Shown here piece by piece: positions 29,607-44,526 of a DNA stretch of 45,780 nucleotides; within the stretch, counting starts at the first letter, position 1; the number at the start of each line of letters is the position of its first letter. A program made the translations under genes and the position numbers. This DNA comes from an uncultured Ectothiorhodospiraceae bacterium (GTDB lineage: Bacteria; Pseudomonadota; Gammaproteobacteria; GRL18), in the NCBI GenBank assembly GCA_964391585.1, contig CAYMMQ010000001.1, positions 1 through 45,780 of the forward strand, given 5' to 3'. A model generated the notes under the pieces. It saw nothing but the letters and a program-made list of their open reading frames with translations, ran no database searches and was not told the origin of the DNA.

Positions 29607-31025
29607 CTATTTTTTATTAATAAGCATATTTATCATATCAGTCAGCACATAAGATGCGACCAAAGGAGCATAAGCGTTGGCTTGTTCACTACCTAAATCA
29701 CCCGTTCCATTCATCAATAATACAATATCAGTATTGCCATATTTTGCTACCCAAGAACCGTAAGGAGGCAAATAACCATCATGACCAAATATCTCTATTT
29801 TAGTTCCATCATAGGTCTTAGAGTAGGACATCGTCCCCAAACCATAACTATGAATACCTACATTATCAGTCACTGCCTGCTGAGTAAATTGTTTTGTATG
29901 TAACTCATCACTGAGCAATAAACCGTCATTATATGCTCTAGCCCAAATCAATAAATCATCTAAAGTAGAAATCATTCCACCTGCAGACCAAGCCATTGGA
30001 GGATTTAGATAAAAAGTATTATTCAATAACATATAAGATGAATTACCTTCATAATCATAAACTTTGTCATAATTATAACCATAAGCATATGGAGTCGGCA
30101 TATTTAAATCTATCGCTAAAGATGTGTGTAGCAGATTCAGTGGTTGCAAAATATGTTGTGATAGAGCTTCAGCATAGCTAATACCGGTTATTTTCTCAAT
30201 AATTAAACCCAAAATCATGTAGTTTCCGTTATTATATAAAAACTCTGCATTTGGATTTGAATACTTTACATTACTATAAGTGATAACATCCATCGGGTTA
30301 GTAAAAACATATCCAGGGTTACCTAAAACAAAAGTGTTATAAAACTCTAGATTAGACAGATATTTTGACAACCCACTTCTCATTTCCAGTAAATTCTCAA
30401 CCGTAATGATATCTCCCATTACAATACCTAGTTCTGGCACTAGACTGTTTACGGTTGCATCAAGCGACAATTTACCCTGATCAACCAGTATTAAAGTCAG
30501 AGTGGAAGTAAATGTTTTGCTAATACTACCAATACGGAAATGTAGATCTGTCGTCATAGCTTTTTTATCTTCATAGACAGAATAACCAGTCGCTCCTTTC
30601 CATACCTTCCCGTCCGCAGTCCTAACAGCCATAACAGCACCGATTCCTTTATTATTTTCTACGGTTGTTTTAAAAGCATTATCGAGCTCTTGGGAAAGTG
30701 TATCATTTATCGATTTATCTTTTATCTCAGCAGGACATTCCGTTAAAGTTAAATAATCATTAATTAAGCCAAGCGAGCTAATCTCTGTGCCTAGTTTTGG
30801 TATATAACGAAAAACCTCTTCACCAGACAAAGCTAAGTAGGAAGCAGTTTTTGGATAGTATTTATAGTTATAACTTTCTGATGTGCCGGTGGTCGCATTA
30901 AGTGCTGGAAAATATGTTGGGCATTTACTTTCTGCCCATGAAAATAACTTTTCTGAATTCTGATTAGCTGCAACCACATTCAAACTGAACGTTGTGAAAC
31001 TTATTAATAAAATAAATTTTTTCAA
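29607..31025 (-). CDS. Secreted beta-lactamase-fold serine hydrolase (class C / DD-peptidase / D-aminopeptidase-like family)
   Basis: 472 aa with signal peptide MKKFILLISFTTFSLNVVAA. It has an SxxK motif (FRIGSISKTFT), a Y.N motif (LYNNGNYMILGLIIEKITGISYAE) and an H.G motif (GHDGY). TTG start with a strong SD (TAGGAG) 8 nt upstream. Confidence 0.85.
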   Translation of the reverse strand: MKKFILLISFTTFSLNVVAANQNSEKLFSWAESKCPTYFPALNATTGTSESYNYKYYPKTASYLALSGEEVFRYIPKLGTEISSLGLINDYLTLTECPAEIKDKSINDTLSQELDNAFKTTVENNKGIGAVMAVRTADGKVWKGATGYSVYEDKKAMTTDLHFRIGSISKTFTSTLTLILVDQGKLSLDATVNSLVPELGIVMGDIITVENLLEMRSGLSKYLSNLEFYNTFVLGNPGYVFTNPMDVITYSNVKYSNPNAEFLYNNGNYMILGLIIEKITGISYAEALSQHILQPLNLLHTSLAIDLNMPTPYAYGYNYDKVYDYEGNSSYMLLNNTFYLNPPMAWSAGGMISTLDDLLIWARAYNDGLLLSDELHTKQFTQQAVTDNVGIHSYGLGTMSYSKTYDGTKIEIFGHDGYLPPYGSWVAKYGNTDIVLLMNGTGDLGSEQANAYAPLVASYVLTDMINMLINKK

Positions 31026-31439: not shown

Positions 31440-32237
31440 ATGAAATGGTCTTTATTACAAATAAGTGTTCCCAATAATTATATGAATTTTTCATCATCTC
31501 TCATTTTACCTAAAAGATTACAAAAACCTCGCCAGACTGGTCTCACTGAGATTATGGATGTTGGCACCCCAACCATGTTGTTTAAAGATTATATCAATGA
31601 TTTTCATCCATTTATTGATTTTATCAAATTTGGCATTGGCTCTGGTTTAATTACCCCAAATCTAAAAGATAAAATCCTCTTTGCTAAAAAGTATGATATT
31701 CAAGTATGGTTTGGGGGAACTTTATTTGAAAAGTTTTTATCTCAAGATCGACTGAATGAATATCTTGACTTTCTACGTCAATATGAAATTAACTGGATTG
31801 AAATATCCAGTGGCACGCTAGGCCAAAGTCATGATGAGGTATTAAAAATTGTTGAACAATTAAAATCTGAATTTTATGTTGTAGCAGAAGTGGGCTCAAA
31901 AGAATCATCAAAAATTATGCCTCCCAGTCAATGGATTAAAGAAATCCAAAATTTATTAACGCTTGATTGTAAATATATTATTTTAGAAGGCAGAGAATCT
32001 GCTACTGCGGGCTTATATCGAAAAACTGGAGAAATTAGAGATGGTTTGATCGCCGATATTGTTAACAACATCGCTATGGACAAACTCATTTTTGAAGCCC
32101 CTACACCAAGCACTCAAAACCATTTTATTAAACACTTTGGTACGAATGTTAACTTTGGTAATGTTAAGTTTACTGATATATTATTATTAGAAAGTCAGCG
32201 CTTTGCACTACGAAATGAAACGTTTTTTATTACTTAA
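31440..32237 (+). CDS. comA: Phosphosulfolactate synthase family protein (ComA / YitD-like, PF02679-type)
   Basis: Family-wide blocks were seen: KPRQTGLTEIMD, IDFIKFGIGSG, WFGGTLFEKF, NWIEISSGTL, VAEVGSKE, ILEGRESATAGLY, LIFEAP, FGTNVNFGNV and LLLESQRFALR. The start may be ATG 31440 or ATG 31482. Confidence 0.85.
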   Translation: MKWSLLQISVPNNYMNFSSSLILPKRLQKPRQTGLTEIMDVGTPTMLFKDYINDFHPFIDFIKFGIGSGLITPNLKDKILFAKKYDIQVWFGGTLFEKFLSQDRLNEYLDFLRQYEINWIEISSGTLGQSHDEVLKIVEQLKSEFYVVAEVGSKESSKIMPPSQWIKEIQNLLTLDCKYIILEGRESATAGLYRKTGEIRDGLIADIVNNIAMDKLIFEAPTPSTQNHFIKHFGTNVNFGNVKFTDILLLESQRFALRNETFFIT

Positions 32238-33738
32238 ACTAGGGATCTTTGTGACAACAAAAAACTTAGATAATAACTTAACAAATAATATAATTAACAG
32301 CAATCACAAAAACGAACGCCGCTCATCTGCTAGGCAGAGTGGGCTGGTAAGTAATAAACCGGCTATTTGGCTTATTGCTATTCTCATACCTTTTTTATTA
32401 TTTTACTTTTTACAAAAAGTAGGTATAGAACGCAATACAGCAATTTTTTCTGCAATTGTAAGCATTACCATTATCATGTGGATAAGCTCCTTATTACCTG
32501 AATTTATTCCCGCATTAATTGCATTATTACTGATCTTATTGTTTGGTTTGGCGCCCAACGATATTGTCTTATCAGGGTTTTCTTCTCCAGGATTTTTACT
32601 ATTATTTAGTGTAATGGGTTTAGGTGTTGTTATCACCAGTTCAGGCTTAACAAGGCGCTATACTTTATGGTTAATTAAAAGTATTCCTGAAAACCTACTA
32701 GCAAACCAAGTTGGTATTTTTTTAACCGGTCTTTTTGTTAACCCAATTGTTCCGACCATTAATGGTCGAGCAATGATAGTTGCTCCTATTTTAAAAAATA
32801 TTGTTTCTGGTTGGTCTGATAAAGATAAAAACAAATCTGCTACCCCTTTATACACTACCGCCTTAGATGGTATTAATTATTTATCTCCTGTTTTTCTAAC
32901 AGCAGCACCTGCAAACCTGATGCTATATGGTCTACTACCACCTCAGGAGCAACAAGCATTTGAGTTTATGTTTTGGATTTATGCCGCATCAATCGTTGGC
33001 CTGGTCATGTTTTTCCTGTATTTTTTAACAAGTGTAATTTTTTTTAGCTCTTTCACCCAAATCAAAATCAATAAAGAAGAAATCAAAAAAGAATATTCCC
33101 AACTTGGAAAACTCTCTTGGAGTGAATGGGTTGCTATTTCTAGTATTATTTTAATCGCAATTGGCATGACTACAACATCTTTACACAAAATACCTATTTC
33201 TCTAATTACTTTTGCTATTTTATGTTCAGCACTGATTATGGGTGTTTTAACAAGGGAGCAATTTACCAAAGACATTGATTGGTCTTTTTTAATGTTACTC
33301 GCCAGCATGGTGGGCACTTTAGAAACCATGAATCACTTAGGTATTGATCAAAGCTTAATTGAACAATTTAATTGGTTAGGCGAATATATGCGAAATGACT
33401 TTGCACTTTTTGTATTATTTTTAACCATCTCAATATTAATTGTCAGGATTTTCATTCCTCTTAACCCTGCTATTTTAATTTTTGCAGCGGCCTTACTTCC
33501 AATATCCTCTGGGGCGGGAGTGAGCGCATGGGTGATCGGTTTTATCATTTTACTCATGTGTGGAACTGCTTTTTTTGGTTATCAATCCCCTTATATTTTA
33601 TATTTTCGTCACTTATTAAATAACGAAGTACCTTATATTGATAGAAAGTTCCAAGTATTTCAGCTTATTTTAGTTTTGGTTAAACTTGCTGCCATTTATA
33701 TTTCTATTCCATTTTGGGTGCATATAGGTATCTTATGA
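32203..33738 (+). CDS. Ion-transporter-superfamily anion permease (DASS/SLC13-like), copy 1
   Basis: 511 aa with at least 10 hydrophobic segments. GLTRRYTLWLI plus VPTINGRAMIVAPIL in the N-terminal half, and IPLNPAILIFAAALLPI in the C-terminal half, resemble the paired re-entrant-hairpin (SNT-type) motifs of DASS permeases. It is paralogous to 40536-41960. The start is uncertain: TTG 32203, ATG 32215, or GTG 32251, which is preceded by an AGGGA SD. Confidence 0.7.
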   Translation: MHYEMKRFLLLKLGIFVTTKNLDNNLTNNIINSNHKNERRSSARQSGLVSNKPAIWLIAILIPFLLFYFLQKVGIERNTAIFSAIVSITIIMWISSLLPEFIPALIALLLILLFGLAPNDIVLSGFSSPGFLLLFSVMGLGVVITSSGLTRRYTLWLIKSIPENLLANQVGIFLTGLFVNPIVPTINGRAMIVAPILKNIVSGWSDKDKNKSATPLYTTALDGINYLSPVFLTAAPANLMLYGLLPPQEQQAFEFMFWIYAASIVGLVMFFLYFLTSVIFFSSFTQIKINKEEIKKEYSQLGKLSWSEWVAISSIILIAIGMTTTSLHKIPISLITFAILCSALIMGVLTREQFTKDIDWSFLMLLASMVGTLETMNHLGIDQSLIEQFNWLGEYMRNDFALFVLFLTISILIVRIFIPLNPAILIFAAALLPISSGAGVSAWVIGFIILLMCGTAFFGYQSPYILYFRHLLNNEVPYIDRKFQVFQLILVLVKLAAIYISIPFWVHIGIL

Positions 33739-34778
33739 GTAAACAATTTCTTAGTAAAATGCTTAGCTTGGTATTTTTATTATCCATTTTTATCCCTGCT
33801 ATTTACATGAACTTGTCAAAACCTCGAGTAATGATAGTACAAAGTTATCACCCCGATTATGCTTGGACTCGGGAAACTGATATAGGTTTAAAGCGTGTTG
33901 TTGATTCTTGGACTGACTATAGCGTAACTTGGCATTATATGGATACGAAGCGAATCAACGGAAAAGAGTGGTTGGACCGTTCAGGCCTTATAACTAAACG
34001 AGCAATTGATCAAACAGATCCTAATGTGTTAATTGCTGTTGATGACTTTGCCCAAGACTTAGTGGCAAAACATTATGTCAATAGCTCAAAAATGAATATT
34101 GTTTTTGCAGGAGTCAATGGTAGTGTAGATGCTTATAACTATAATAATGCCAAAAATGTCACTGGAATCTTTGAGCACAAACTATTGGTTCCGATTCAAG
34201 AAGTGATTTTAACCATAGAACAAAAAAAATCGTTACCTAAATTGAATCCAAAGCTTTTATATCTTATGGATCCTTCTGATTCATTAAAGCAAGGACGTGT
34301 GTCAATTGATAACTTTGCTTGGGCACCTATTCAATACTTTGGATCAATTATCGCAAATGATTTTGAACATTGGCAAAAATTGGTTTTAAGTATAGGCAAA
34401 AAAGTAGATTATATTATCGTTTCAAATTATCGAAAATTGCCTCGAAATAAAGAACAGCAAGTGTTTGTTAACCCACATGAAGTGATGCAATGGACTGAAG
34501 CACATTCTCCTGTTCCTGTTATTGGAATTAATTCATTTAATGTTGAAGATGGCGCTATGATTTCGGTAGGTGCATCTCCTTATGAGCAAGGTGAAGTTGC
34601 TGCTAAAATGGCCAATAAAATTATTAAAGAAAATATTAGCGCCAATCAAATTCCTTTTCAACAAAATAAAATGTATATTATAGCCTTACGCAAAGAGGCC
34701 TTATTAAAACGCCACATCCAATTACCTTCTATTTATGAAGCCTTTGGACGAGCAACTGAAAATTTTATTGAAAACTAA
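33735..34778 (+). CDS. Membrane-anchored periplasmic-binding-fold protein (ABC_sub_bind/PF04392-like), copy 1
   Basis: It has an N-terminal signal anchor (MSKQFLSKMLSLVFLLSIFIPAIY). The blocks KPRVMIVQSYHPDYAWT, NVLIAVDD, NIVFAGVN and AKNVTGIFE are typical of the PF04392-type binding or sensor fold. The ATG at 33735 overlaps the permease TGA (ATGA). The track offers TTG 33714 as a longer alternative. Confidence 0.6.
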   Translation: MSKQFLSKMLSLVFLLSIFIPAIYMNLSKPRVMIVQSYHPDYAWTRETDIGLKRVVDSWTDYSVTWHYMDTKRINGKEWLDRSGLITKRAIDQTDPNVLIAVDDFAQDLVAKHYVNSSKMNIVFAGVNGSVDAYNYNNAKNVTGIFEHKLLVPIQEVILTIEQKKSLPKLNPKLLYLMDPSDSLKQGRVSIDNFAWAPIQYFGSIIANDFEHWQKLVLSIGKKVDYIIVSNYRKLPRNKEQQVFVNPHEVMQWTEAHSPVPVIGINSFNVEDGAMISVGASPYEQGEVAAKMANKIIKENISANQIPFQQNKMYIIALRKEALLKRHIQLPSIYEAFGRATENFIEN

Positions 34779-35037
34779 GAAATTATACAGTGAAGCTTTT
34801 TATTATTCGCCGTTTTGCAATATCGTATAACAAACAACAACTCCAAATAAGCTACTGCATAAGCTTTCATCACTAGCCCTGAACCGTTAAATCTTTATTT
34901 TGATCTGAACGCATGTAATATTAATCTTATCAAGTGCAGTTGCAACAAATAAAGTTTCCACCAAAACTAAAAAGAAGGATTCATTATTACAAAATGATAA
35001 CAAAATTAATTCTCACAATGGATATAACTTTTTAAGT

Positions 35038-36639
35038 CTAAGGTAAAGAAGTCAAGATTTTTAAGTTAATACCCTCGTCTAATGCCTGAGTCGAAGACAA
35101 TAACAAGCCAACTTCAAATCTTGAGTTTGCAATAGCATTGATCAAGCCACTCAATGCATTAAAATATACCACAGCAGCAGCATCCAAACGATCCTGCAAG
35201 GTTAACAAACTATTAATTTCTCTTAAATCATCAATGCTCTGACCGCTAACTAAAGCCATCATAGAGCTTACATAAGATTTTAACGATTTATCCGCTTCAA
35301 ATGCTTTATTCCGACTTGTCATTAAAACATTAACGTCATTGTGAACACTTAACTTTAGCTGTCTTATGGTTTCATTTAATTGTAAACTTGCCATTTCTTT
35401 AGCTGCAAAACTCGAGCTATAAGCTCCTTTAGCGGTACTATTGCTTAATGGATAATTTAAGACTAAGGCTCCTGAAAAGGCTGGCGTTCTAACCCGGTAA
35501 GAAGCCGATTGCCACATATCATGAAGACTATTACCATAACTAAAACCGTCTGTGCCGTAACTAAAAGAAAGATTCAAACTGGGATTAAGGTTATTTTTTT
35601 CTCTTGCTAATAGTATTTGTGCTGCGTCTAACCTGATTTTAAGAGCCTGTATATCATTGCGGTTTTGCAATGCCATATTTGTCCAACTATCTGTTAATGT
35701 TACCGCATCTAAATTTTTCAGTTCTTCTCTCCAATTTTTTGGAAACCCTTCTACATTAGGCTTTCCTAATGTTTCTATCGCAGTTGCTTGTATTCCCATT
35801 GCGCTTGCTAAAGCTATTGCTGATGCTTGCAGCACTTTTTCAGACTCAATCAAGCTACTCTGTTTTTCTGCTCGATAACCCGCTAACAAATGGTTATCTG
35901 AATGATTTGATTTTCTGTGCCAAGTATCAATAGTTCGCTTAGATTCAGCAAGGTAAGCATTAATAGAATAAGCTGCCACATAATCCCAATAGCGATTTAC
36001 AGTTGTTAAAACCGTTTGCGACACCAAGTGTTTATAATCAGCTTCTGTAGCCCTAGACTCAAGAATAGCAGCATTTTCTGCAGCACCTGAAGACACCTTG
36101 CCAGAACCTTTTAACAAAGGGATGTCAACTTTGAAGTTAAGTTGAGTTGAATTAGTTGTTGGGATTGCAGCACCCATCGGGTCAGGAACTGGGTGATCAT
36201 ACTGAGTCATTAAATAGGATAAGCTAGTAGAAATTCCATTACGGAATTTTTTAGTAATCGAGGTACTAAGTGAATGAACATCTTGATCAAGATAGGTTCT
36301 AGGCTCGCTACCAACTATAGGCAAACCTAACTCGTAGGGGGACTTAGTTATCAAGGCTGAGTTAGTTTGGGCCATAAAGGATAAGTTAACATCAAAAGCA
36401 CCTGCTTGTGACTTTTCAACTGCCTTAGAAAAATCAACCGATAATTGTTTCAATTTAATGTTTAGCGAGTCCTGTAAGGTAGACTTAACTGCACTATAAA
36501 GATTAAGCTGTATTTCCTGTTGTTGAACTCCTTGTTGTTGTTCATTGGCATATAAAATATTAGTAAAGAGAAGTAATAATAGCAAGATTTTAGCTGGCAG
36601 AAATTTATTTTTAAATTTCAAACTTCTAAAAAAAGTCAT
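35038..36639 (-). CDS. TolC-family outer-membrane efflux protein
   Basis: 533 aa with a signal peptide (…LLLLLLFTNILYA). The start LNLYSAVKSTLQDSLNIKL... is typical of OEP repeats, and there are two long helical/beta repeat halves. The ATG overlaps the upstream stop (TAATG). Confidence 0.8.
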   Translation of the reverse strand: MTFFRSLKFKNKFLPAKILLLLLLFTNILYANEQQQGVQQQEIQLNLYSAVKSTLQDSLNIKLKQLSVDFSKAVEKSQAGAFDVNLSFMAQTNSALITKSPYELGLPIVGSEPRTYLDQDVHSLSTSITKKFRNGISTSLSYLMTQYDHPVPDPMGAAIPTTNSTQLNFKVDIPLLKGSGKVSSGAAENAAILESRATEADYKHLVSQTVLTTVNRYWDYVAAYSINAYLAESKRTIDTWHRKSNHSDNHLLAGYRAEKQSSLIESEKVLQASAIALASAMGIQATAIETLGKPNVEGFPKNWREELKNLDAVTLTDSWTNMALQNRNDIQALKIRLDAAQILLAREKNNLNPSLNLSFSYGTDGFSYGNSLHDMWQSASYRVRTPAFSGALVLNYPLSNSTAKGAYSSSFAAKEMASLQLNETIRQLKLSVHNDVNVLMTSRNKAFEADKSLKSYVSSMMALVSGQSIDDLREINSLLTLQDRLDAAAVVYFNALSGLINAIANSRFEVGLLLSSTQALDEGINLKILTSLP

Positions 36640-36812
36640 TAATCCTTCCCCTTTTTAATTTCTGATACAATAACTAATAAAATACCGACTATTGGCGTTA
36701 GTAAAATGGAGGCGAAAAAATACCCCCAAAAACCCATTTTCCGGTGTCGACCCAAATAACCAACGATTAAGCTAGCTAAAATAGAGGTAATAATTAAACC
36801 AACAATTAACAT
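36639..36812 (-). CDS. Mini membrane protein (57 aa, two TM helices)
   Basis: The sequence is MLIVGLIITSILASLIVGYLGRHRKMGFWGYFFASILLTPIVGILLVIVSEIKKGKD. I chose ATG 36812 because of the AAGGAAG SD upstream; the track's TTG 36842 would add 10 aa. The stop overlaps the TolC-like start. Confidence 0.55.
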   Translation of the reverse strand: MLIVGLIITSILASLIVGYLGRHRKMGFWGYFFASILLTPIVGILLVIVSEIKKGKD

Positions 36813-36909
36813 ATCTCTTCCTTTTTCATACTTTATTCCCAATTATTTTTAACTTAAGGTAATAGGTACAGTTTAAGTGAATTATATTCTAGCTCAATAC
36901 ACTAATAAA

Positions 36910-38442
36910 TTATAGTTTAGACTCTTCCAGTGATTTAAACTTACCTTGCTGTAACACTTTGAAAATGATTTTGTTATTTTTTAATTCACCTCGTATATTA
37001 AACTGGTATTGCCCATTGACTCCAGTCCAGTCTGTAATATGGCGCATATTTGAGGCCAAATCCCTAGGCGAGCTGGAACCAACAAGGTAAACACTGTATG
37101 CTATTAAATTGACTGCATCAAACGCTAGAGTTGCTTCCAAGTCTGGCTGAACTCCATATTTCTCTTGATATAACTGGAAAAATAATTTGCTATTTTTTAA
37201 TTTTGTTGTCGGATTAAATACCGAAGGAATGGTCAAGCCACTAGTTTCAACGTTAAGAGAGGAATTAATTAAACTTTCTGACTCCAATGCTCGAGTACCT
37301 ATAAACTTAAAAGAATACCCCATTAGTTGAGCCTGTGTCATTATTTTTGCCACAAGCTTTGTCCAATCGGTGACTAAATATATCGCATCAACTTTCTTAC
37401 TTGCCATTTCAGAAATTATCTCTGAAAAATCACTCCTTTTTTGGAAAAAACGCTTAGTGTATGCCACATTAACCCTCTGTTTGACAGCGTTTTCCAAAAA
37501 CATTCTACCCAGTTCATCAGAAGCATCGCTCTCGCCAATTAAAACAGCGACATTTTGAAAGGATTGTTTAGCAAAGAATTTCACAGATTCCTGAGCGATA
37601 ACTTCATTATTTGGTAATAACCTGAATCCTAGTTGCATATTTTGACGTAATAGATTAACTCTAGAATCTGTAGCTATAAAGTGCATTATACCAACTTGTT
37701 CATATAATTGAGAAAATAACTTATTATTTGGACTTTGCTGGCCATCAACTGCTGCAACTACCGACTTCATATTGCGAATTTCATTTGACAGTTTCAAGAA
37801 TGAAATATTATTGTTCTCAGCTGTTTTCAAAATAACCCGTATTTTTCTTACTTTAGATATGCTTTTTTTATTGATCAGTTCAGCTGCTAACTGAGCCCCA
37901 TTGTAAAAAGTAGAATCATCATCAATATTTTTTATAACCACTATATCTAGGTATGACTTCTTATACAAAAAAATAGTATCTTGATACCACTTCTTTTTAA
38001 GGTCAATTCCTAAGAATAATAATGTCTGATGTAATACAGAGTTGTTACGGTAATTTAACAACCCACTATACCAGCTATTTTGTTCATAATTATTTTGACA
38101 ATAATTGACGATATTTTTATGCCTTTTACAAAGTTGTTTACTCGTTAAATAATATTTTTGGCTTAAAAACGCCTTACACGTTAATTTTTTTTCTGGGAAA
38201 AATTGACATTCATTATCGGTTTCTAAAAAGGCATCACACTTAACATTATTAACTTCGAAAGAATCACTTAATGCATACATTCGACAAGATGAATTCTTAT
38301 CTTGCTGAGCTAAATATTCAAACCTTGATTTTGACAATTGCTCAGAGCTTTCACCACAGCCAACTAATAGCAAAAACATGCAAATTACAATAATATAGAG
38401 TCTACCAAACGAAGTAGGGAATATTTGAATATTACTTAGCAT
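36910..38442 (-). CDS. Lipoprotein with a Cys-rich N-terminal region and a type-1 periplasmic binding domain (LivK/Peripla_BP_6-like)
   Basis: 510 aa with lipobox LLVGC (Cys29). Six Cys fall between aa 53 and 115. The C-terminal ~330 aa carry PBP1-like blocks (VAVLIGESDASDELGRMF, VDAIYLVTDW, LAFDAVNLIAYS, TGVNGQYQFN.RGE). The ATG overlaps the SPFH stop (TAATG). Confidence 0.7.
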   Translation of the reverse strand: MLSNIQIFPTSFGRLYIIVICMFLLLVGCGESSEQLSKSRFEYLAQQDKNSSCRMYALSDSFEVNNVKCDAFLETDNECQFFPEKKLTCKAFLSQKYYLTSKQLCKRHKNIVNYCQNNYEQNSWYSGLLNYRNNSVLHQTLLFLGIDLKKKWYQDTIFLYKKSYLDIVVIKNIDDDSTFYNGAQLAAELINKKSISKVRKIRVILKTAENNNISFLKLSNEIRNMKSVVAAVDGQQSPNNKLFSQLYEQVGIMHFIATDSRVNLLRQNMQLGFRLLPNNEVIAQESVKFFAKQSFQNVAVLIGESDASDELGRMFLENAVKQRVNVAYTKRFFQKRSDFSEIISEMASKKVDAIYLVTDWTKLVAKIMTQAQLMGYSFKFIGTRALESESLINSSLNVETSGLTIPSVFNPTTKLKNSKLFFQLYQEKYGVQPDLEATLAFDAVNLIAYSVYLVGSSSPRDLASNMRHITDWTGVNGQYQFNIRGELKNNKIIFKVLQQGKFKSLEESKL

Positions 38443-39305
38443 TACTGATTCCCAAGAATAATAGGCAATCCGCCTTCCCCAGAACCAATAACAACTACTT
38501 TAGCATTTTCAGATGTGGATAGCTCCAAAGTTGCTTTAACCCCCTGCCACTTGATTATTTTATCCGTCAGTGTAGTAGAAACAATTCCTTGAAATTCCTT
38601 TATGCCCTTTGCTTCAATTATTTTTCTGTTAGCTTCTTGTTGAGCTACTTGTAGAATGATATTATATTTTTTAAGCTTTTCCTGCTCCACCAGTTTAGCT
38701 TCAATTGCATCTTTGAGTAGTTGGGGTAATTCTATGCTTCGGATAATAATATCTTTAACCACAACATAATTTTGACTACTTTCTTCAATAGCCATATTCA
38801 ATATATTGGTCAGCACCCCATCTTTATTAGTATAAATATCTTCTGCCTCTAACTCCCCAGCTTTAATCCTTATTACTGACTCTATTTGAGGCAATAAAAT
38901 TTTTAGATATTCTGGCCCTATTCGCTGGTGTAAAAAACCCAGCATTTGATACTCAGGATGATATCTGATAGCAAGCTTTAAGGTTATTGGCAATCCTTTA
39001 TTTGTTAAAACCACCATTTCATGTTTAATGGTTTGAATTCTCACGGTATAAATATACATAGTATTCCAAGGCAATACAAAATGTAACTTTTCAGGGTAGA
39101 CATAATCTACTTCTGTGCCTTTTTCTGGACCTAAACTAAAACGCCGGTATAAAACACCCGCTTCGCCTGAAGCAATCGTAACGAACATATCTCTGGCGAA
39201 GAACACAACTATCAATAATAAGATTAAGATAGTAACAACAAGGAAAGGAAGTTTGGCTTTAACCCAGCCCTTAAAGCGCTTAGTCATTGGTAATTTTTTA
39301 GACAT
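38442..39305 (-). CDS. SPFH/band-7 (prohibitin/HflC-like) membrane protein
   Basis: 287 aa with an N-terminal TM (LPFLVVTILILLLIVVFFA). The SPFH core reads IASGEAGVLYRRF...FVLPWNTMYIYTVRIQT...LKLAIRYHP, followed by a C-terminal coiled-coil-like EAKLVEQEKL...QQEANRKIIEAKG. Confidence 0.8.
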   Translation of the reverse strand: MSKKLPMTKRFKGWVKAKLPFLVVTILILLLIVVFFARDMFVTIASGEAGVLYRRFSLGPEKGTEVDYVYPEKLHFVLPWNTMYIYTVRIQTIKHEMVVLTNKGLPITLKLAIRYHPEYQMLGFLHQRIGPEYLKILLPQIESVIRIKAGELEAEDIYTNKDGVLTNILNMAIEESSQNYVVVKDIIIRSIELPQLLKDAIEAKLVEQEKLKKYNIILQVAQQEANRKIIEAKGIKEFQGIVSTTLTDKIIKWQGVKATLELSTSENAKVVVIGSGEGGLPIILGNQ

Positions 39306-39465
39306 TTAGTTTATTAAGAATCCATTAAATTTAAAATTTATTAACAAATAAAATCATTCATACTGTCTTATCTAGCCCTATAACGCCTACAAGATTTATA
39401 AATTATCGATTATTTAGTAACAGCAATATTTACCATCTATTTTTGCTAGCTATAAAAGCTTAAAA

Positions 39466-40539
39466 TCAATCTTTATAATGCACTTTAAGTTGACTAGATG
39501 ACTCATGTAAATTAGGTAAATTAATCTTTCGCTTCTTAAGGATAGCCGGATCAGAATATAAAACATATCGACCATTGGCTTTCATTGCAATCTGTTTTGC
39601 AGGAATTTTTTGAGTTATAATTTGCTCTGCCATATTCGCAGCAACTTCTCCCTGCTCAATCCCAGACGTTCCAATTGACAACATTGCCCCATCCTTTACA
39701 TTAAACCCATTAATTCCAATAACTGGAACAGGTGAGTTTGCTTCTGTCCAACTCATCACATCATCTGGGGCAGCGAACCAATGTGCAATACTAGAAACAG
39801 GGAGTGCCCGATAATTAGAAACCATAATATAATCGGTTAGGTGACTATTTTCCATAACAATTTTTTTCCACATAGTCAAATCTTTAGCTTCAATCGAGCC
39901 GATATAATCTATTGGTTCCCATTGATAACTATCAATAACAACACGTTCACCTAGCAAGCTTGAAGGATCCAGTATGTACAATAATCGCGGAGCTGGTTCA
40001 TTCTCATTTCCCTCCTTGTTTATAGCGTTTTTCTTACTATTAAATTTTTTGCTTTCTATTTGTTGAATAATTTCTTTAACCCCATCCAATTGTTTATATT
40101 CAAAAATGCCTGTGACATTTTTTGCGCCAATATAACCATATTGATCAGCCGATGAATTAATTCCCGCAAAAACAATATTCATATTAGGATCATCTACAAA
40201 ATATTTGCCAACATACTTTTGAGCATTATCATCTATAGCTATCAATACATCAGGGCGTAATTGTTTAATCGCCTGCCTTGCCATTAAACCTGAATCTTCT
40301 GACATGATAGGAGATGAAAATCTTTTGGTATCCATATAGTACCAACTAACAGCAATATTTTGCCAATTATCAATCACTCGATGTAAACCTTTATTTACTT
40401 CTTGAGTCCATAAATACTCAGGATTATAACTATGTACAATCATCACTCTTGGTTTATGTGCGCGAAATACTACTGCAGAGATAATCAAACCAATCAAAAT
40501 TACCACCCCTAACCAAGAAGCTGTTTTTATTTGCCTCAT
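39466..40539 (-). CDS. Membrane-anchored periplasmic-binding-fold protein (PF04392-like), copy 2
   Basis: Roughly 50% identical by eye to 33735-34778 (KPRVMIVHSYNPEYLWT, DVLIAIDD, NIVFAGIN, AKNVTGIFE, SPVPVIGINGFNVKDGAM, EQGEVAANMA). The ATG at 40539 forms an ATGA overlap with the permease stop. TTG 40560 is the longer alternative. Confidence 0.6.
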   Translation of the reverse strand: MRQIKTASWLGVVILIGLIISAVVFRAHKPRVMIVHSYNPEYLWTQEVNKGLHRVIDNWQNIAVSWYYMDTKRFSSPIMSEDSGLMARQAIKQLRPDVLIAIDDNAQKYVGKYFVDDPNMNIVFAGINSSADQYGYIGAKNVTGIFEYKQLDGVKEIIQQIESKKFNSKKNAINKEGNENEPAPRLLYILDPSSLLGERVVIDSYQWEPIDYIGSIEAKDLTMWKKIVMENSHLTDYIMVSNYRALPVSSIAHWFAAPDDVMSWTEANSPVPVIGINGFNVKDGAMLSIGTSGIEQGEVAANMAEQIITQKIPAKQIAMKANGRYVLYSDPAILKKRKINLPNLHESSSQLKVHYKD

Positions 40540-41960
40540 AAAAAACCTGTAACTTGCCAAAATGGAATAGATAAATAAATTACTATATATCGAAGTAACA
40601 AAAGAAGAACTTGAAATTTATTCCCCTCCTGAAAACCAGCAGGAATAGATTCCGCCTCACGTTCTCCTACAACATAACTTTTTTGGTACGGAGAAAAAAC
40701 ACGAATCGAAGTAAACAGTAAAACGATCAAGCCTAATAACCAAGGATTAATACCTGAAAACACCGATAATGGTAATAAAACAAAACAAAAAATCAAGGCA
40801 ACAACCTGCTCGGACATAAATTGTCTTGCCATCACAATCAATATAGTTAATAACATTACAAAGATAGCAAACTGTTGTGCAATAAACTGACTTAACCATG
40901 TTAGCTGGCTAATCATAAGAGCATCTAGTTGCAAATATTCCATTACAGCAAAAACACCTGATGCACATGCCAACAAAAGTAAAAAATCCCAATTTATTTT
41001 AGATATAAAATATTTCCAATGATTACCAGAAACAAGCAAAATAATAACTAATACCCCAAAACATAGATGTGAAAGTGGTTGTTGATGTATGTTTTGGGTT
41101 GATATACCAAGCAGTAAGACTCCAATAGCCATTAAAACCATCCTCTCCATTGAGCTAAATGCACCTGGAGATTGGAAATACTCACTCATTGATTTTTCAG
41201 TCAGCACAACTTTTTGTAACGGCTTCCAATACCAAGAGGAAAGGATCAGATATAACACAAACATCAATAAAGTCGTCACGGAGCACGCATATAACCAGAA
41301 AGAAAAAGTAAAAAGTGACTGGTTCTGATTAGAAAGGAAAGCTAATACAAAAAAATTTGCCGGAGCAGCTGTTAATAGTAGTGGGGAAAAAAAATTTACC
41401 GCATCTTGAGATGTTGTAGTCAACATAACATTTTTTTTTGCTAGCCCAATTTCAGTCCTTGTTTCTAATATTGAGTTAAGCATAGGCAAAATAATTTTTT
41501 CACGCTTATTATCACTAAGAGTAAAAGACTGATACAAAAAGCCAACTATTAACATTGCACATTGCTGAAAAAATCTATTTGCCGGTAAATGGCGCAACAA
41601 AAAAGCTCCTGTTCGTATCGCTAGCCCAGAACGCACAACAGCGAGACCTATTCCCATTAAGCTAAAAGCTAAAATAAATATTGGTGAAGAAAACCCCGAT
41701 AAGGTAATATTTTCTGGCGCCAAGTCAAATAGTAGTAGCAACAGCAAAGCTAACATTGCCGGAACAAAATCAGGAACAGGAGCAAATAACCATAGCGTAA
41801 CACAGCCCAAACAAATCGCACTAAATATTGATGTGTTATTAGCGACTCCATTTAAGTTGAGCACAACATAAGTTGCCATTGGGAGCACTAACAATACTAA
41901 GTAACTAAGACTTTGTTCTGCCACAAAGTTATTTAGAAGTTTTTTTATATTTATATTCAA
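40536..41960 (-). CDS. Ion-transporter-superfamily anion permease (DASS/SLC13-like), copy 2
   Basis: 474 aa, polytopic, and paralogous to 32203-33738. For example, FSAICLGCVTLWLFAPVPDFVPAMLALLLLLLFDLAPENITLSGFSSP compares with FSAIVSITIIMWISSLLPEFIPALIALLLILLFGLAPNDIVLSGFSSP. TTG start with a GAGGA SD. Confidence 0.7.
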   Translation of the reverse strand: MNINIKKLLNNFVAEQSLSYLVLLVLPMATYVVLNLNGVANNTSIFSAICLGCVTLWLFAPVPDFVPAMLALLLLLLFDLAPENITLSGFSSPIFILAFSLMGIGLAVVRSGLAIRTGAFLLRHLPANRFFQQCAMLIVGFLYQSFTLSDNKREKIILPMLNSILETRTEIGLAKKNVMLTTTSQDAVNFFSPLLLTAAPANFFVLAFLSNQNQSLFTFSFWLYACSVTTLLMFVLYLILSSWYWKPLQKVVLTEKSMSEYFQSPGAFSSMERMVLMAIGVLLLGISTQNIHQQPLSHLCFGVLVIILLVSGNHWKYFISKINWDFLLLLACASGVFAVMEYLQLDALMISQLTWLSQFIAQQFAIFVMLLTILIVMARQFMSEQVVALIFCFVLLPLSVFSGINPWLLGLIVLLFTSIRVFSPYQKSYVVGEREAESIPAGFQEGNKFQVLLLLLRYIVIYLSIPFWQVTGFL

Positions 41961-41983: not shown

Positions 41984-42661
41984 TTAGCTCAAACTTAATA
42001 GTGGAGGGTAAACTTTTATTGCAGTTATCAAAAAAGACTCAGTATTCTCAACTAATACTTCACAACCATACTTTACTCCTTGGTAGTAACAATAAATTTG
42101 CCTATCACACATCATGAACCTCAGTTCGCGACAATCCATAAATTTACCACAGGTTTCTGATAAGGCTTTCACAGCACACTCTTTTAAACTAAAAAGCACC
42201 ATCTCTGCTTGCATATGTTTTGATAGTGTTGTCATTAACTCCAATTCACTTTCATCGTAAATAAACATATAGGCTAAACCGCTCAATGAGTTTTTTGTAA
42301 CCGATAAATTTATCACGTCAACACCAATGCTCATCCAGGCTACTTTTGTTGTGAGGACAACTACTGCAACGGCCAAATCAATATCATGGCTAATCGAGCC
42401 AATAACACCTTGTGGCCATAAAGGTTGATGCAATTCACCTACCCCAATATACGAGCATTGAATATCAATCATTTTCAATGCTTCTCTGGCGCACCATCGC
42501 CCACTTGAAAATTCAAGTTTACGTTGCTCTACTGCATCAGAAACTATCTTTCTCTCTGCTTTTGTAATAGGATATGCATTGATATTAACCACCACAATGG
42601 CTGCATCAGGAGAAAAAAATCCTTCCAGTATCGTCTGTGCCACATATTTATTATCATCCAT
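41984..42661 (-). CDS. 4'-phosphopantetheinyl transferase, Sfp/EntD type
   Basis: 225 aa. Motifs seen: RKLEFSSGRWCAREAL, PLWPQGVIGSISH, IGVDV and FSLKECAVKAL (the (F/W)(S/C/T)xKE(S/A)xxK motif). It lies 23 nt upstream of permease copy 2 on the same strand. Confidence 0.8.
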   Translation of the reverse strand: MDDNKYVAQTILEGFFSPDAAIVVVNINAYPITKAERKIVSDAVEQRKLEFSSGRWCAREALKMIDIQCSYIGVGELHQPLWPQGVIGSISHDIDLAVAVVVLTTKVAWMSIGVDVINLSVTKNSLSGLAYMFIYDESELELMTTLSKHMQAEMVLFSLKECAVKALSETCGKFMDCRELRFMMCDRQIYCYYQGVKYGCEVLVENTESFLITAIKVYPPLLSLS

Positions 42662-43353: not shown

Positions 43354-44526
43354 ATGAAAATTAGTAAAGTTTTAAGCAAATACATAATGAAATATATACA
43401 AATACTCATCATTTCTCTTGTGCCTTTTATAGCGCAATTTTCCTTTGCTAGCAATTTACCTATATCAGTACAAATTGATAAAAAAACCAAAATCATAGAG
43501 TATTTGATGAAAAACCAAAACTGCCACCTAATAAATAAACATATTGATCAATTGCAAAACCTAACACCTATATTGCCGTTATCAATACAGTTTTATCAAA
43601 GCACTTGCTATTATAAACAAGGCGATATGAAAAAAACTTTGCAGTCTCTAGAAGCTTATTTTTCTAGCGTAAAAAATACAGACAGCAACTATTTGCAAGC
43701 ATTAGAAATCTATATTTCTGCCGAAAAAACGCTGTTGATAAAAAAAGAAGCGGATGAACAACAGCGCCTCTCCTTACAATTAGAAAAAAAACAAACCGAA
43801 CTACAACTTCAGCAGTCTAATGAAATTGAACTTCAACGACAAAAGGCTCTTTCAAAAATACAATGGCCCATGATAAATATAAATGCAGGTTGTTTTTATA
43901 TGGGGTCACTTGAAAATAATGAAGAAAAACCCATGCATAGAGTATGCTTGGATAAGTCCTACTCTATTGGACAATTCGAAGTCACTCAACAACTATGGCA
44001 AGTTGTAATGCAAGAAGGTAGTTTAAACTCTAGCAGCAATAGTTCTTGCATATCTAATGACTGTCCGATAACCTCTGTTAGCTGGAAAAACATTCAAATA
44101 TTTATCGATAAATTAAATAAAATTGACAATAAACATTATCGCCTACCTAGCGAAGAAGAATGGGAGTATGCCTGTCGCAACCTCGGTAAAAATCAACGCA
44201 GTTGCACCGAAAATAGTCTTAATGCTATTTCTCACTCTTATAGTGCTAAAGTAACGTCGCTAAAAGAAGTCAAACAAACACCCCATAACCTTATTGATAT
44301 TTTTGGTATGAATGGTAATGCCTCTGAATGGGTTATGGATGATTTTAGTCCGAACTATCACATTAACAATCCAATCATCCCTTCACAAGCCCGTGCAAAA
44401 CCAACTAAAGTAATTCGTAACGCATGCTGTTATAACTCTGATGACAGAATTAATTTAAACCGTTTTGGCCACGTTAAAACTTACGCTGATGACTCTGTTG
44501 GTTTTCGCCTCGCTCAGGATTTATAA
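43354..44526 (+). CDS. Secreted or anchored protein with a helical/coiled-coil N-terminal part and a C-terminal FGE-sulfatase (SUMF1-like) domain
   Basis: 390 aa with signal-like IQILIISLVPFIAQFSFA. It has a Q/E/K-rich coiled-coil stretch (EADEQQRLSLQLEKKQTELQLQQSNEIELQRQKA). FGE-domain blocks seen: CFYMGS, KPMHRV, FEVTQQLW, YRLPSEEEWEYACR, NGNASEWVMD and SVGFRLA. Confidence 0.75.
   Translation: MKISKVLSKYIMKYIQILIISLVPFIAQFSFASNLPISVQIDKKTKIIEYLMKNQNCHLINKHIDQLQNLTPILPLSIQFYQSTCYYKQGDMKKTLQSLEAYFSSVKNTDSNYLQALEIYISAEKTLLIKKEADEQQRLSLQLEKKQTELQLQQSNEIELQRQKALSKIQWPMININAGCFYMGSLENNEEKPMHRVCLDKSYSIGQFEVTQQLWQVVMQEGSLNSSSNSSCISNDCPITSVSWKNIQIFIDKLNKIDNKHYRLPSEEEWEYACRNLGKNQRSCTENSLNAISHSYSAKVTSLKEVKQTPHNLIDIFGMNGNASEWVMDDFSPNYHINNPIIPSQARAKPTKVIRNACCYNSDDRINLNRFGHVKTYADDSVGFRLAQDL

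What the first reader, a model, noticed from the sequence alone, without database searches (positions are those of the whole stretch)
32203..41960. Two diverged, convergently oriented copies of a translationally coupled permease plus membrane-anchored binding-protein cassette: possible new binding-protein-dependent secondary transporter
Cassette 1 (32203-34778, plus strand) and cassette 2 (39466-41960, minus strand) each encode a DASS/ion-transporter-superfamily permease immediately followed by a ~350-aa protein. That protein has a signal anchor and a PF04392-like periplasmic binding fold. The binding proteins are roughly 50% identical by eye, the permeases less so, and the nucleotide sequences are clearly diverged, so this is an old duplication. 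In both cassettes the permease stop and the binding-protein ATG form the same ATGA overlap (33735-33738 and 40536-40539). This argues for conserved 1:1 co-expression. As far as I know, established binding-protein-dependent secondary transporters are the TRAP and TTT types. A DASS-like permease obligately paired with a tethered PF04392-fold protein is not a described architecture. Alternatively, the second protein may be a sensor or regulator of the permease.
Basis: partly seen in the sequence, partly recalled or inferred. Interest (0 to 1): 0.72.

Follow-up and report, generated by a model that had tools for sequence, protein, structure and literature searches.

The report
DASS-like permease with tethered binding protein
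The window holds two copies of a conserved two-gene module, a DASS-fold membrane permease translationally coupled to a membrane-anchored periplasmic binding protein. The pair travels together in five bacterial phyla and is probably an undescribed kind of binding-protein-dependent secondary transporter.

Summary
Both cassettes, both ATGA stop/start overlaps and the identities (binding proteins 50%, permeases 35%) are as described.

- **Pairing:** It is not local chance. 75 of 78 testable homologous binding-protein genes from genomes of five phyla have the permease directly upstream. 21 of 21 testable permease-seeded metagenome loci have the binding protein directly downstream. 79 of 95 junctions overlap by 4 or 1 nt.
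- **Folds:** The permease model has the full DASS fold. It lacks both SNT motifs and keeps the arginine typical of DASS exchangers. The partner is an uncleaved-anchor, PF04392-like type I binding protein with a cleft-like set of invariant residues.
- **Partners and regulation:** No ABC, TRAP or TTT partner is conserved. 57% of family permeases carry a cytoplasmic cyclic-nucleotide-binding domain.
- **Origin of the two copies:** They are not a local duplication. Cassette 2 sits in a conserved NRPS-linked operon. Cassette 1 (ComA-linked) is absent from that block in relatives.
- **Literature:** I found no paper describing this pairing.
- **Limits:** Transport, ligand and interface are untested. 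A regulatory or sensor role for the binding protein remains a serious rival.

The parts
31440..32237 (+). ComA-like (2R)-phospho-3-sulfolactate synthase, first gene of the cassette 1 operon
   Evidence: PF02679 at 242.5 bits. A ComA gene lies next to the pair in 11 other loci, directly upstream of the permease, separated from it by a His_Phos_1 gene, or downstream of the BP.
32203..33738 (+). Permease 1: DASS-fold membrane protein, canonical member of the family (probable start 32215 or later)
   Evidence: PF00939 at 90.6 bits. AF2 pLDDT 90.2. Foldseek TM 0.75-0.84 to DiT2.1, NaS1, NaCT and VcINDY. It violates none of the 36 family-conserved columns and is 72% identical to L080/L089.
33735..33738 (+). 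ATGA stop/start overlap, cassette 1
   Evidence: Sequence read. The same type of junction occurs in 79 of 95 pairs.
33735..34778 (+). BP1: N-terminally anchored PF04392-like type I periplasmic binding protein
   Evidence: PF04392 at 38.8 bits. AF2 pLDDT 92.1, with a TM helix at residues 3-27 and the first strand at residue 31. Foldseek top hits are 3LKV, 3LFT and 6HNI/6HNJ.
40536..41960 (-). Permease 2: divergent DASS-fold paralogue with an altered hairpin-tip region
   Evidence: PF00939 at 56.2 bits. It is at most 37% identical to canonical members and differs at 8 of 36 family-conserved columns. Orthologues are P0237 (66%) and P0238 (62%).
40536..40539 (-). ATGA stop/start overlap, cassette 2
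   Evidence: Sequence read. The same 4-nt overlap is present in L104, L105 and L106.
39466..40539 (-). BP2: anchored PF04392-like binding protein, partner of permease 2
   Evidence: 50% identical to BP1. It differs at only 2 of 33 family-conserved columns.
41984..42661 (-). 4'-phosphopantetheinyl transferase, 23 nt upstream of permease 2 in the conserved minus-strand operon
   Evidence: PF17837 and PF01648. Same position in L104-L107.
35038..39305 (-). Band_7/SPFH (38442-39305), Peripla_BP_6 lipoprotein (36910-38442) and TolC-like OEP (35038-36639), downstream of BP2 on the same strand
   Evidence: Pfam hits. Same gene order in L104/L105.

Best explanation
Each cassette encodes a two-subunit, binding-protein-dependent secondary transporter.

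Proposed mechanism (inferred):
- The second gene product is held on the periplasmic face of the inner membrane by an uncleaved N-terminal helix. Only about 4 residues separate the helix from the globular domain.
- It captures a small solute in the cleft between its two lobes and docks on the periplasmic face of the DASS-fold permease.
- The permease carries the solute across by an elevator movement of its transport domain.
- The permease has an arginine where sodium-coupled DASS proteins bind Na1, and it lacks both SNT motifs. Coupling is therefore probably not the classical Na+ symport and may be exchange-like.
- In 57% of family members a cytoplasmic N-terminal cyclic-nucleotide-binding domain probably gates activity. 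The two window copies lack it.
- The solute is unknown. Recurrent sulfur-related neighbours (ComA, sulfotransferases, SulP) make a small sulfo- or oxy-anion the leading guess for the canonical type.

The two cassettes:
- Cassette 1 is the canonical, ComA-linked type.
- Cassette 2 is a divergent type recruited into an NRPS-associated operon. Its permease hairpin region is altered, which suggests a changed substrate or role.

Shown: anatomy, folds, conserved pairing and conserved coupling.
Inferred: complex formation, ligand delivery and direction of transport.
For: **Pairing.**
- The permease is directly upstream on the same strand for 75 of 78 testable BP genes in GTDB genomes.
- The BP is directly downstream in 21 of 21 testable permease-seeded metagenome loci.
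- The most distant permease hits, P0235 at 29% identity and P0234 from Pseudoalteromonas luteoviolacea, are also followed by a PF04392 gene.

**Coupling.** 79 of 95 junctions overlap by 4 or 1 nt.

**Co-divergence.** Permease and BP distances correlate at r=0.83, Mantel p=0.001.

**No other partner.** Only these two genes are conserved in the neighbourhood. There are no ABC, DctQ or TctB genes.

**Folds.** The permease is DASS-like. The BP is PF04392-like and closest to SBPs of ABC importers.

**BP cleft.** 33 BP columns are at least 95% conserved across phyla. Most sit at the C-terminal ends of beta-strands of both lobes, where type I PBPs bind ligand.

**Periplasmic location.** Some BP variants carry RodZ_C or LysM_OapA domains. 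The N-flank of the anchor is the more positive side.

**Other conserved features.**
- F14 in the anchor is 95% conserved.
- The extreme C-terminus of the permease (IPFW..G.L) is conserved.

**No signalling fusions.** None occur among the best 150 BP representatives.

**Precedent.** SBP recruitment by elevator-type carriers is described as an emerging theme in PMC12344293.
Against: - No transport, binding or interaction data exist, and no complex model could be run.
- The permease lacks both SNT motifs and resembles exchangers. No SBP-dependent exchanger is known.
- In the cassette 2 clade the permease loses family-invariant residues at the presumed substrate site (P181, P184, D359; R189 and Q461 in the orthologues). 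The BP cleft residues stay intact. That is odd if the BP cleft and the permease site handle the same ligand.
- Signalling context is pervasive: cNMP domains, and adjacent PF04392-like sensors fused to SpoIIE or histidine kinase with STAS and RsbW-like genes.
- The conserved BP cleft is rich in acidic and aromatic residues, which is not the obvious chemistry for an anion.
- Operon co-inheritance alone would produce the distance correlation.
Confidence: 0.5

Rival explanations
1. The binding protein is a periplasmic sensor or gate rather than a substrate-delivery subunit. Ligand binding to BP switches the permease on or off, or makes the pair a 'transceptor' that reports to cytoplasmic signalling through the cNMP domain or a partner-switching module. 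The permease binds its own substrate directly, or in the cassette 2 clade no longer transports.
For: - 47 of 83 permeases carry an N-terminal cNMP-binding domain.
- In the clade of cassette 1 the pair sits beside PF04392-like sensors fused to a SpoIIE phosphatase or HisKA/HATPase, plus STAS and RsbW-like genes.
- These sensor domains share the N-lobe motifs SY..Y.WT and DD with BP (sequence read).
- BP cleft residues are invariant even where the permease hairpin tips diverge.
- Peripla_BP_6-MscS fusions and SulP-STAS-cNMP genes recur nearby.
Against: - Orthologous BPs are never fused to output domains in the best 150 representatives. The long ones are tandem BP domains or carry RodZ_C/LysM.
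- The permease keeps a complete, high-confidence DASS transport fold with invariant R152, R189, R415, E308, H328 and Q461 in the canonical clade.
- Tight 1:1 translational coupling is the pattern seen for TAXI-GltS and many transporter subunits.
- Adjacent sensors with SBP-like domains are also common next to genuine SBP-dependent transporters (general knowledge).
Confidence: 0.28
2. The binding-protein-like subunit is a structural accessory with no small-molecule ligand. Its transmembrane helix and membrane-apposed domain would stabilise or enlarge the scaffold of the permease, as DctQ does in TRAP systems, or help its assembly.
For: - The linker between anchor and domain is very short (helix 3-27, strand from residue 31).
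- The anchor residue F14 and the juxtamembrane N26/K29/P30/R31 are conserved.
- The pairing is obligate, with no third membrane subunit.
Against: - Invariant residues cluster at the inter-lobe positions typical of ligand clefts, not only near the membrane.
- The model is an open two-lobed PBP closest to ligand-binding SBPs.
- Apart from F14 the anchor helix is poorly conserved.
- DASS proteins normally obtain their scaffold by dimerising (PMC7553777).
Confidence: 0.1
3. The two genes are merely neighbours in an operon with unrelated functions. An ordinary DASS carrier would sit next to an orphan SBP that serves an ABC transporter encoded elsewhere.
For: - PF04392 proteins characterised so far serve ABC importers.
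- Three BP genes have no permease directly upstream: L008, L063, and the second of the two tandem BP genes downstream of the L071 permease.
Against: - Adjacency, strand, order and overlapping stop/start are kept across five phyla and down to 29% permease identity.
- The permease subfamily was never found without the BP when downstream DNA was available.
- There is no conserved ABC gene nearby.
Confidence: 0.03

Closest known systems
TRAP transporters (TC 2.A.56; DctP or TAXI SBP plus DctQ/DctM)
   Same: Secondary carrier of the ion-transporter superfamily with the elevator fold. The SBP gene is co-transcribed with the membrane component. DctM shares the DASS fold: the permease gives weak PF06808 hits and Foldseek hits to SiaQM at TM 0.5-0.6.
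   Different: The SBP here is a PF04392-like type I PBP, not DctP or TAXI. There is no Q subunit. The membrane protein is much closer to DASS proper than to DctM. The BP is tethered by an uncleaved helix. The Na1 site is probably occupied by arginine.
TAXI-GltS system of Bordetella pertussis (PMC12344293)
   Same: An SBP family known from one transporter class is genetically linked and translationally coupled to an unrelated elevator-type secondary carrier. In both cases the claim rests mainly on genome context.
   Different: The SBP family differs (TAXI vs PF04392-like) and so does the carrier family (GltS/ESS vs DASS-like). TAXI-GltS has natural fusions and a measured glutamate affinity. No fusion or ligand is known here.
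DASS family (TC 2.A.47), especially the exchanger clade (DiT1/DiT2.1, LaINDY, CitT)
   Same: Full DASS fold. The best sequence matches among solved structures are DiT2.1 (73 bits) and DiT1 (62 bits), against 32 bits for VcINDY. R189 aligns with the Arg of the DiT 'ARA' motif. I infer this is the exchanger Na1 surrogate described for LaINDY Arg159.
   Different: Both SNT motifs are replaced (T-I-N/T and P-L-N). There is no His at the Na2 position. TIGR00785 scores are far below cut-off. The family has an obligate binding-protein partner and often an N-terminal cNMP domain. No DASS protein is known to use an SBP.
PF04392 (ABC_sub_bind) SBPs of ABC importers: TrpX, CD0873, VC 3LKV
   Same: Same fold (Foldseek E 1e-10 to 1e-13) and a weak Pfam match.
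   Different: Only 14-18% identical. The anchor is an uncleaved helix rather than a lipoprotein or secreted form. The N-lobe motifs SY..Y.WT and DD are distinct. No ABC partner is present. Known ligands of the family are L-Trp, L-Tyr and L-Phe; the ligand here is unknown.

Membership tests
DASS (TC 2.A.47 / PF00939 / TIGR00785) | Pfam PF00939 above gathering score | tested here: met
   90.6 and 56.2 bits against a cut-off of 27.
DASS (TC 2.A.47 / PF00939 / TIGR00785) | NCBIfam TIGR00785 'dass' subfamily cut-off | tested here: not met
   98.2 and 71.4 bits against a cut-off of 198.6.
DASS (TC 2.A.47 / PF00939 / TIGR00785) | DASS fold (scaffold plus transport domain with two re-entrant hairpins) | tested here: met
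   AF2 pLDDT 90.2, pTM 0.87. Foldseek TM 0.75-0.84 to 9mcu, 8y5w, 7jsj and 6okz.
DASS (TC 2.A.47 / PF00939 / TIGR00785) | Two Ser-Asn-Thr motifs at the hairpin tips that bind substrate and Na+ | tested here: not met
   The profile alignment to VcINDY places T185-I186-N187 and P419-L420-N421 at the SNT positions. Neither Asn position is conserved in the family. Motif definition from PMC7553777.
DASS exchanger clade (DASS-E) | Arg as Na1 surrogate and His as Na2 surrogate | tested here: inconclusive
   Near-invariant R189 (≥95% of family permeases; Pro in the permease 2 orthologue P0237) aligns with the Arg of DiT1/DiT2.1 'ARA'. No His is present at the second site. Equivalence to LaINDY Arg159 is inferred, not aligned directly.
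DASS (TC 2.A.47) | Obligate homodimer | not testable with these tools
   No multimer prediction was available.
PF04392 ABC_sub_bind SBPs | Pfam gathering score | tested here: inconclusive
   BP1 scores 38.8 bits, above the 25.9 cut-off. BP2 scores 22.6 bits, below it.
PF04392 ABC_sub_bind SBPs | Type I PBP fold closest to solved PF04392 structures | tested here: met
   The top five Foldseek hits are 3LKV, 3LFT and 6HNI/6HNJ.
PF04392 ABC_sub_bind SBPs | Genetic linkage to ABC permease and ATPase genes | tested here: not met
   No ABC genes appear among the conserved neighbours in 79 loci.
TRAP transporters | DctP- or TAXI-type SBP | tested here: not met
   The BP is PF04392-like with no DctP or NMT1_3 hit.
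TRAP transporters | DctQ small subunit plus DctM large subunit | tested here: not met
   No Q-like gene is present. PF06808 scores 28.7 bits against 90.6 for PF00939. SiaQM ranks below all DASS structures.
TTT transporters | TctC SBP with TctA/TctB membrane proteins | tested here: not met
   No PF03401, TctA or TctB hits in the cassettes or among conserved neighbours.
Binding-protein-dependent secondary transporter (functional class) | Conserved co-occurrence and co-expression of an SBP with a secondary carrier | tested here: met
   75 of 78 and 21 of 21 loci; 79 of 95 overlapping junctions.
Binding-protein-dependent secondary transporter (functional class) | Transport requires the SBP, and the SBP binds the transported solute | not testable with these tools
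   Needs biochemistry or genetics.

The most novel reading that the evidence does not exclude
The pair is not a nutrient importer. It is a new kind of transmembrane signalling or gating device: a tethered periplasmic binding protein controls a DASS-fold protein, whose conformational change is read out in the cytoplasm by a fused cyclic-nucleotide-binding domain or a neighbouring partner-switching module. In the NRPS-linked cassette 2 clade the transport site has decayed while the coupled pair persists.
Probability: 0.17. Interest if true: 0.85.

Novelty: new variant of a known kind. Interest (0 to 1): 0.72.

Why it matters
Binding-protein dependence among secondary transporters was thought to be confined to TRAP and TTT systems. 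A TAXI-GltS system was added in 2025, and its authors asked explicitly for further classes, to test whether the elevator mechanism is what allows SBP coupling (PMC12344293).

This module would be such a class. It is built on the best-understood elevator fold (DASS/SLC13) but with a different SBP superfamily, a tether and frequent cyclic-nucleotide control.

It is widespread: 364 clusters at 50% identity score E≤1e-30, in five phyla. Carriers include cultured Pseudoalteromonas, Agarivorans, Duganella, Desulfobacter and Halochromatium, so the hypothesis is directly testable.

It would also correct annotations. The genes are currently named 'SLC13 family permease', 'anion permease' or 'ABC transporter substrate-binding protein'.

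Tried and rejected
- **Local tandem or inverted duplication.** Rejected. Cassette 2 has its own orthologues (62-66%) in a conserved block: FGE | PPTase-perm-BP-Band_7-Peripla_BP_6-OEP-beta-lactamase-NRPS. That block lacks cassette 1 in L104/L105. Each cassette 1 protein is closer to proteins of other organisms (72%/69%) than to its cassette 2 counterpart.
- **Mobile-element borders around cassette 1.** Only chance-level repeats were found.
- **Riboswitch or other RNA clue to the ligand.** Nothing in the window at E≤1, apart from one spurious lncRNA hit. Nothing at gathering score in 10 loci.
- **Promoter and terminator scan.** Counts do not exceed shuffled sequence, so it is uninformative.
- **Organism identification.** The exact-sequence look-up found the proteins in NCBI but returned no name.
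- **First permease alignment for the metagenome scan.** It was too diverse and was repeated with a narrower one.
- **Paper on the DiT structures.** None is held.
- **TRAP, TTT or ABC membership.** Rejected; see the membership tests.
- **Natural permease-BP fusions.** None among the listed hits. The long BPs are tandem BP domains or carry RodZ_C/LysM.
- **Inter-protein covariation.** About 95 pairs are too few to attempt it.


Full report
**1. The observation**

- Permease 1 is at 32203-33738 (+). The public annotation, P0124, is 507 aa, which puts the start at 32215.
- BP1 is at 33735-34778 (+).
- Permease 2 is at 40536-41960 (-).
- BP2 is at 39466-40539 (-).

Both junctions read ATGA.

Pfam places the permeases in PF00939/PF03600. 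It places BP1 in PF04392 at 38.8 bits; BP2 scores 22.6 bits, just under the cut-off. NCBIfam's DASS model scores far below its cut-off for both permeases.

BP1 and BP2 are 50% identical. The permeases are 35% identical.

**2. Is the pairing real?**

*From the binding protein.* An alignment of BP homologues was used to scan one genome per GTDB species. It returned 79 loci. I built HMMs of the window proteins and searched six-frame ORFs of the loci.
- 75 of 78 testable BP genes have a homologue of the window permease immediately upstream on the same strand.
- The exceptions are L008, L063 and the second of two tandem BPs in L071.
- Three further BP genes lie at contig ends and could not be tested.

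*From the permease.* A permease alignment seeded a metagenome scan. All 21 loci with downstream DNA carry the BP gene directly after the permease. So do the loci of the two most distant permease hits, P0235 (29% identity) and P0234 from Pseudoalteromonas luteoviolacea.

*Junctions and co-divergence.*
- Of 95 junctions, 79 have a 4-nt (NTGA) or 1-nt (TRATG) overlap. Ten have gaps of 30 nt or less. Six, mostly cyanobacterial, have larger gaps.
- Pairwise distances of the two proteins correlate at r=0.83, Mantel p=0.001. Operon co-inheritance would produce this, so it shows the genes move as a unit and no more.

*Neighbourhood and spread.*
- Clustering all neighbouring ORFs shows that only these two genes are conserved.
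- Hosts span Pseudomonadota (gamma, alpha, beta), Desulfobacterota, Nitrospirota, Cyanobacteriota and Verrucomicrobiota.
- A profile search of 1.84 billion cluster representatives finds 364 at E≤1e-30.

*Caveat.* Both scans were seeded by short conserved peptides. They are biased towards canonical members.

**3. The two proteins**

*Permease 1.*
- It models confidently: pLDDT 90.2, pTM 0.87. Residues 1-50 are disordered.
- It has the complete DASS fold, with TM 0.75-0.84 to AtDiT2.1, NaS1, NaCT and VcINDY. TRAP SiaQM ranks lower.
- By sequence it is nearest the plastid exchangers DiT2.1 and DiT1 (73 and 62 bits) rather than VcINDY (32 bits).
- That alignment puts T185-I186-N187 and P419-L420-N421 where VcINDY has its two SNT motifs. 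Neither Asn position is conserved in the family.
- The near-invariant R189 (it is Pro in the permease 2 orthologue P0237) aligns with the Arg of the DiT 'ARA' motif. In DASS exchangers an Arg three residues after the motif Asn occupies the Na1 site as a permanent sodium surrogate (PMC7553777). Equating R189 with it is my inference.
- The exchanger His at Na2 is absent.

*Permease variants in the family.*
- 47 of 83 family permeases carry an N-terminal PF00027 cNMP-binding domain. This fixes the N-terminus in the cytoplasm. With the odd-numbered DASS topology (established knowledge) it puts the strongly conserved C-terminal IPFW..G.L motif in the periplasm.
- Both window permeases are of the short type, without this domain.

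*BP1.*
- It models at pLDDT 92.1. There is a helix at residues 3-27 and the first beta-strand starts at residue 31, so the globular domain sits on the membrane.
- The fold is closest to the solved PF04392 SBPs: 3LKV, 3LFT and CD0873. Their known ligands are Phe, Trp and Tyr. Identity is only 14-18%.
- Thirty-three columns are at least 95% conserved across all clades. Most follow beta-strands of both lobes: S37, Y38, Y42, W44, D103, D104, F124, G126, E147, D179, Y232, F268, E284 and Q285. In type I PBPs that is where the cleft lies. This is inferred from the secondary-structure map, because no coordinates were available.

*BP variants.*
- Some carry the periplasmic domains RodZ_C or LysM_OapA. 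This supports a periplasmic location, as does the more positive N-flank of the anchor.
- None of the best 150 BP representatives has a signalling output domain. The ~640-aa ones are tandem BP domains.

**4. The two cassettes are different things**

*Cassette 1* is canonical.
- It is 72%/69% identical to L080/L089 and departs from no family-conserved column.
- It is preceded by a ComA phosphosulfolactate synthase gene. ComA lies next to the pair in 11 other loci, often with a His_Phos_1 phosphatase.

*Cassette 2* is divergent.
- Permease 2 is at most 37% identical to canonical members. It differs at 8 of 36 conserved columns, concentrated in the first hairpin (P181S, P184L) plus D359N.
- It has orthologues, P0237 (66%) and P0238 (62%), which additionally lose R189 or Q461.
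- BP2 keeps 31 of 33 conserved columns.

*Synteny.*
- The contigs of those orthologues have the window's minus-strand gene order: FGE-sulfatase | PPTase - permease - BP (4-nt overlap) - Band_7 - Peripla_BP_6 - OEP - beta-lactamase-like - NRPS. There is no ComA-permease-BP unit between OEP and the beta-lactamase-like gene.
- So in the window cassette 1 (31440-34778) is an insertion into that block, or was lost from the relatives. No flanking repeats mark it.
- The convergent arrangement is therefore incidental.

**5. Context elsewhere**

*Clade of cassette 1.* The pair lies beside a protein with a PF04392-like periplasmic domain fused to DUF3369 plus a SpoIIE phosphatase, or to a histidine kinase. 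STAS and RsbW-like genes are also present, which makes up a partner-switching module.

*Sulfur-related neighbours recur:*
- ComA.
- Two sulfotransferase families.
- FGE-sulfatase-domain proteins, in 7 loci and in the window at 43354-44526.
- SulP-STAS-cNMP.

*Other recurrent neighbours.* An OEP precedes the permease in three loci. Peripla_BP_6-MscS fusions are adjacent in three.

No riboswitch was found.

**6. Interpretation**

The best-supported reading (confidence 0.5) is a two-subunit, binding-protein-dependent secondary transporter. A tethered PF04392-like PBP delivers a solute to a DASS-fold elevator carrier. That carrier is probably not classically Na+-coupled and is often gated by a cyclic nucleotide. 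The substrate is unknown; a small sulfo- or oxy-anion is a weak guess from context.

The main rival (0.28) is that BP is a sensor or gate. It is favoured by two things:
- the heavy signalling context;
- the intact BP cleft alongside a drifting permease site in the cassette 2 clade.

A purely structural accessory (0.10) and mere neighbourhood (0.03) are less likely.

**7. Known or new?**

Full-text searches found no description of this pairing. The 2025 TAXI-GltS paper states that before it only TRAP and TTT carriers were known to use an SBP, and it asks for further classes.

The module fails the defining tests for TRAP, TTT and ABC systems, and the SNT test for classical DASS. I rate it a new variant of a known kind, namely SBP-dependent secondary transport with a new carrier/SBP combination. 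Function is still to be shown.

Noticed in passing
window 3352-29348 (-), with 941-2587, 29607-31025 and 41984-42661: A very large NRPS locus. It has two synthetase genes of 5968 and 2693 aa, an ABC exporter, a secreted beta-lactamase-fold protein and an Sfp-type PPTase. G+C is 38-45% inside the NRPS genes against 31-34% in the flanks. The same operon frame recurs in L104/L105.
   Followed up: partly
window 31440-34778 versus L104 15526-18973: ComA-permease 1-BP1 lies in opposite orientation between the OEP and the beta-lactamase-like gene. Those two genes are adjacent (392-nt spacer) in the related contigs, so this is an insertion or a loss. No flanking repeats were found.
   Followed up: yes
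L001 1183-3546; L017 7714-9862; similar genes in L002-L006, L010-L013, L018, L021, L024, L032, L058, L080, L082, L084, L087, L089: Large sensors with a PF04392-like periplasmic domain sit next to the pair, together with STAS and RsbW-like genes. The domain shares the SY..Y.WT and DD motifs with BP. It is fused to DUF3369 plus a SpoIIE phosphatase, or to HisKA/HATPase.
   Followed up: partly
L026, L033, L055, L056, L103 and 42 other loci: 57% of family permeases have an N-terminal cyclic-nucleotide-binding domain. Others (P0125, P0126, P0150, P0181; L009) have a 300-400-aa N-terminal extension with at most a weak LysM hit.
   Followed up: partly
P0361, P0364, P0367, P0370, P0375 (no loci held): Proteins of about 640 aa made of two tandem BP-like domains. 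L071 has two separate BP genes after one permease, and L051 has two complete cassettes in tandem.
   Followed up: no
L029 1217-4069; also L033 and L048: Peripla_BP_6 fused to an MscS-type channel domain, adjacent to the pair in three genomes. The window has a separate Peripla_BP_6 lipoprotein (36910-38442) overlapping the stop of an SPFH gene by 1 nt.
   Followed up: no
L063 2762-10182: An orphan, divergent BP gene sits between a LanM-like (DUF4135/LanC) gene and nitroreductase plus YcaO genes, which looks like a RiPP cluster. A full cassette lies about 15 kb away on the same chromosome (L065).
   Followed up: no
L060 3775-5667; L061 3552-5992: The permease is split into two or three ORFs in a Limnothrix MAG and a gammaproteobacterial MAG. 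These are possible pseudogenes or assembly frameshifts.
   Followed up: no
window 32979-33329 (-): A 116-aa ORF antisense inside permease 1. It has no support and is probably spurious.
   Followed up: no
window 43354-44526 (+); L022, L035, L041, L042, L045, L046, L104-L107: FGE-sulfatase-domain proteins recur next to the pair. They lie directly downstream of BP in Desulfuromonadales-type loci and divergently upstream of the PPTase in the cassette 2 block.
   Followed up: partly
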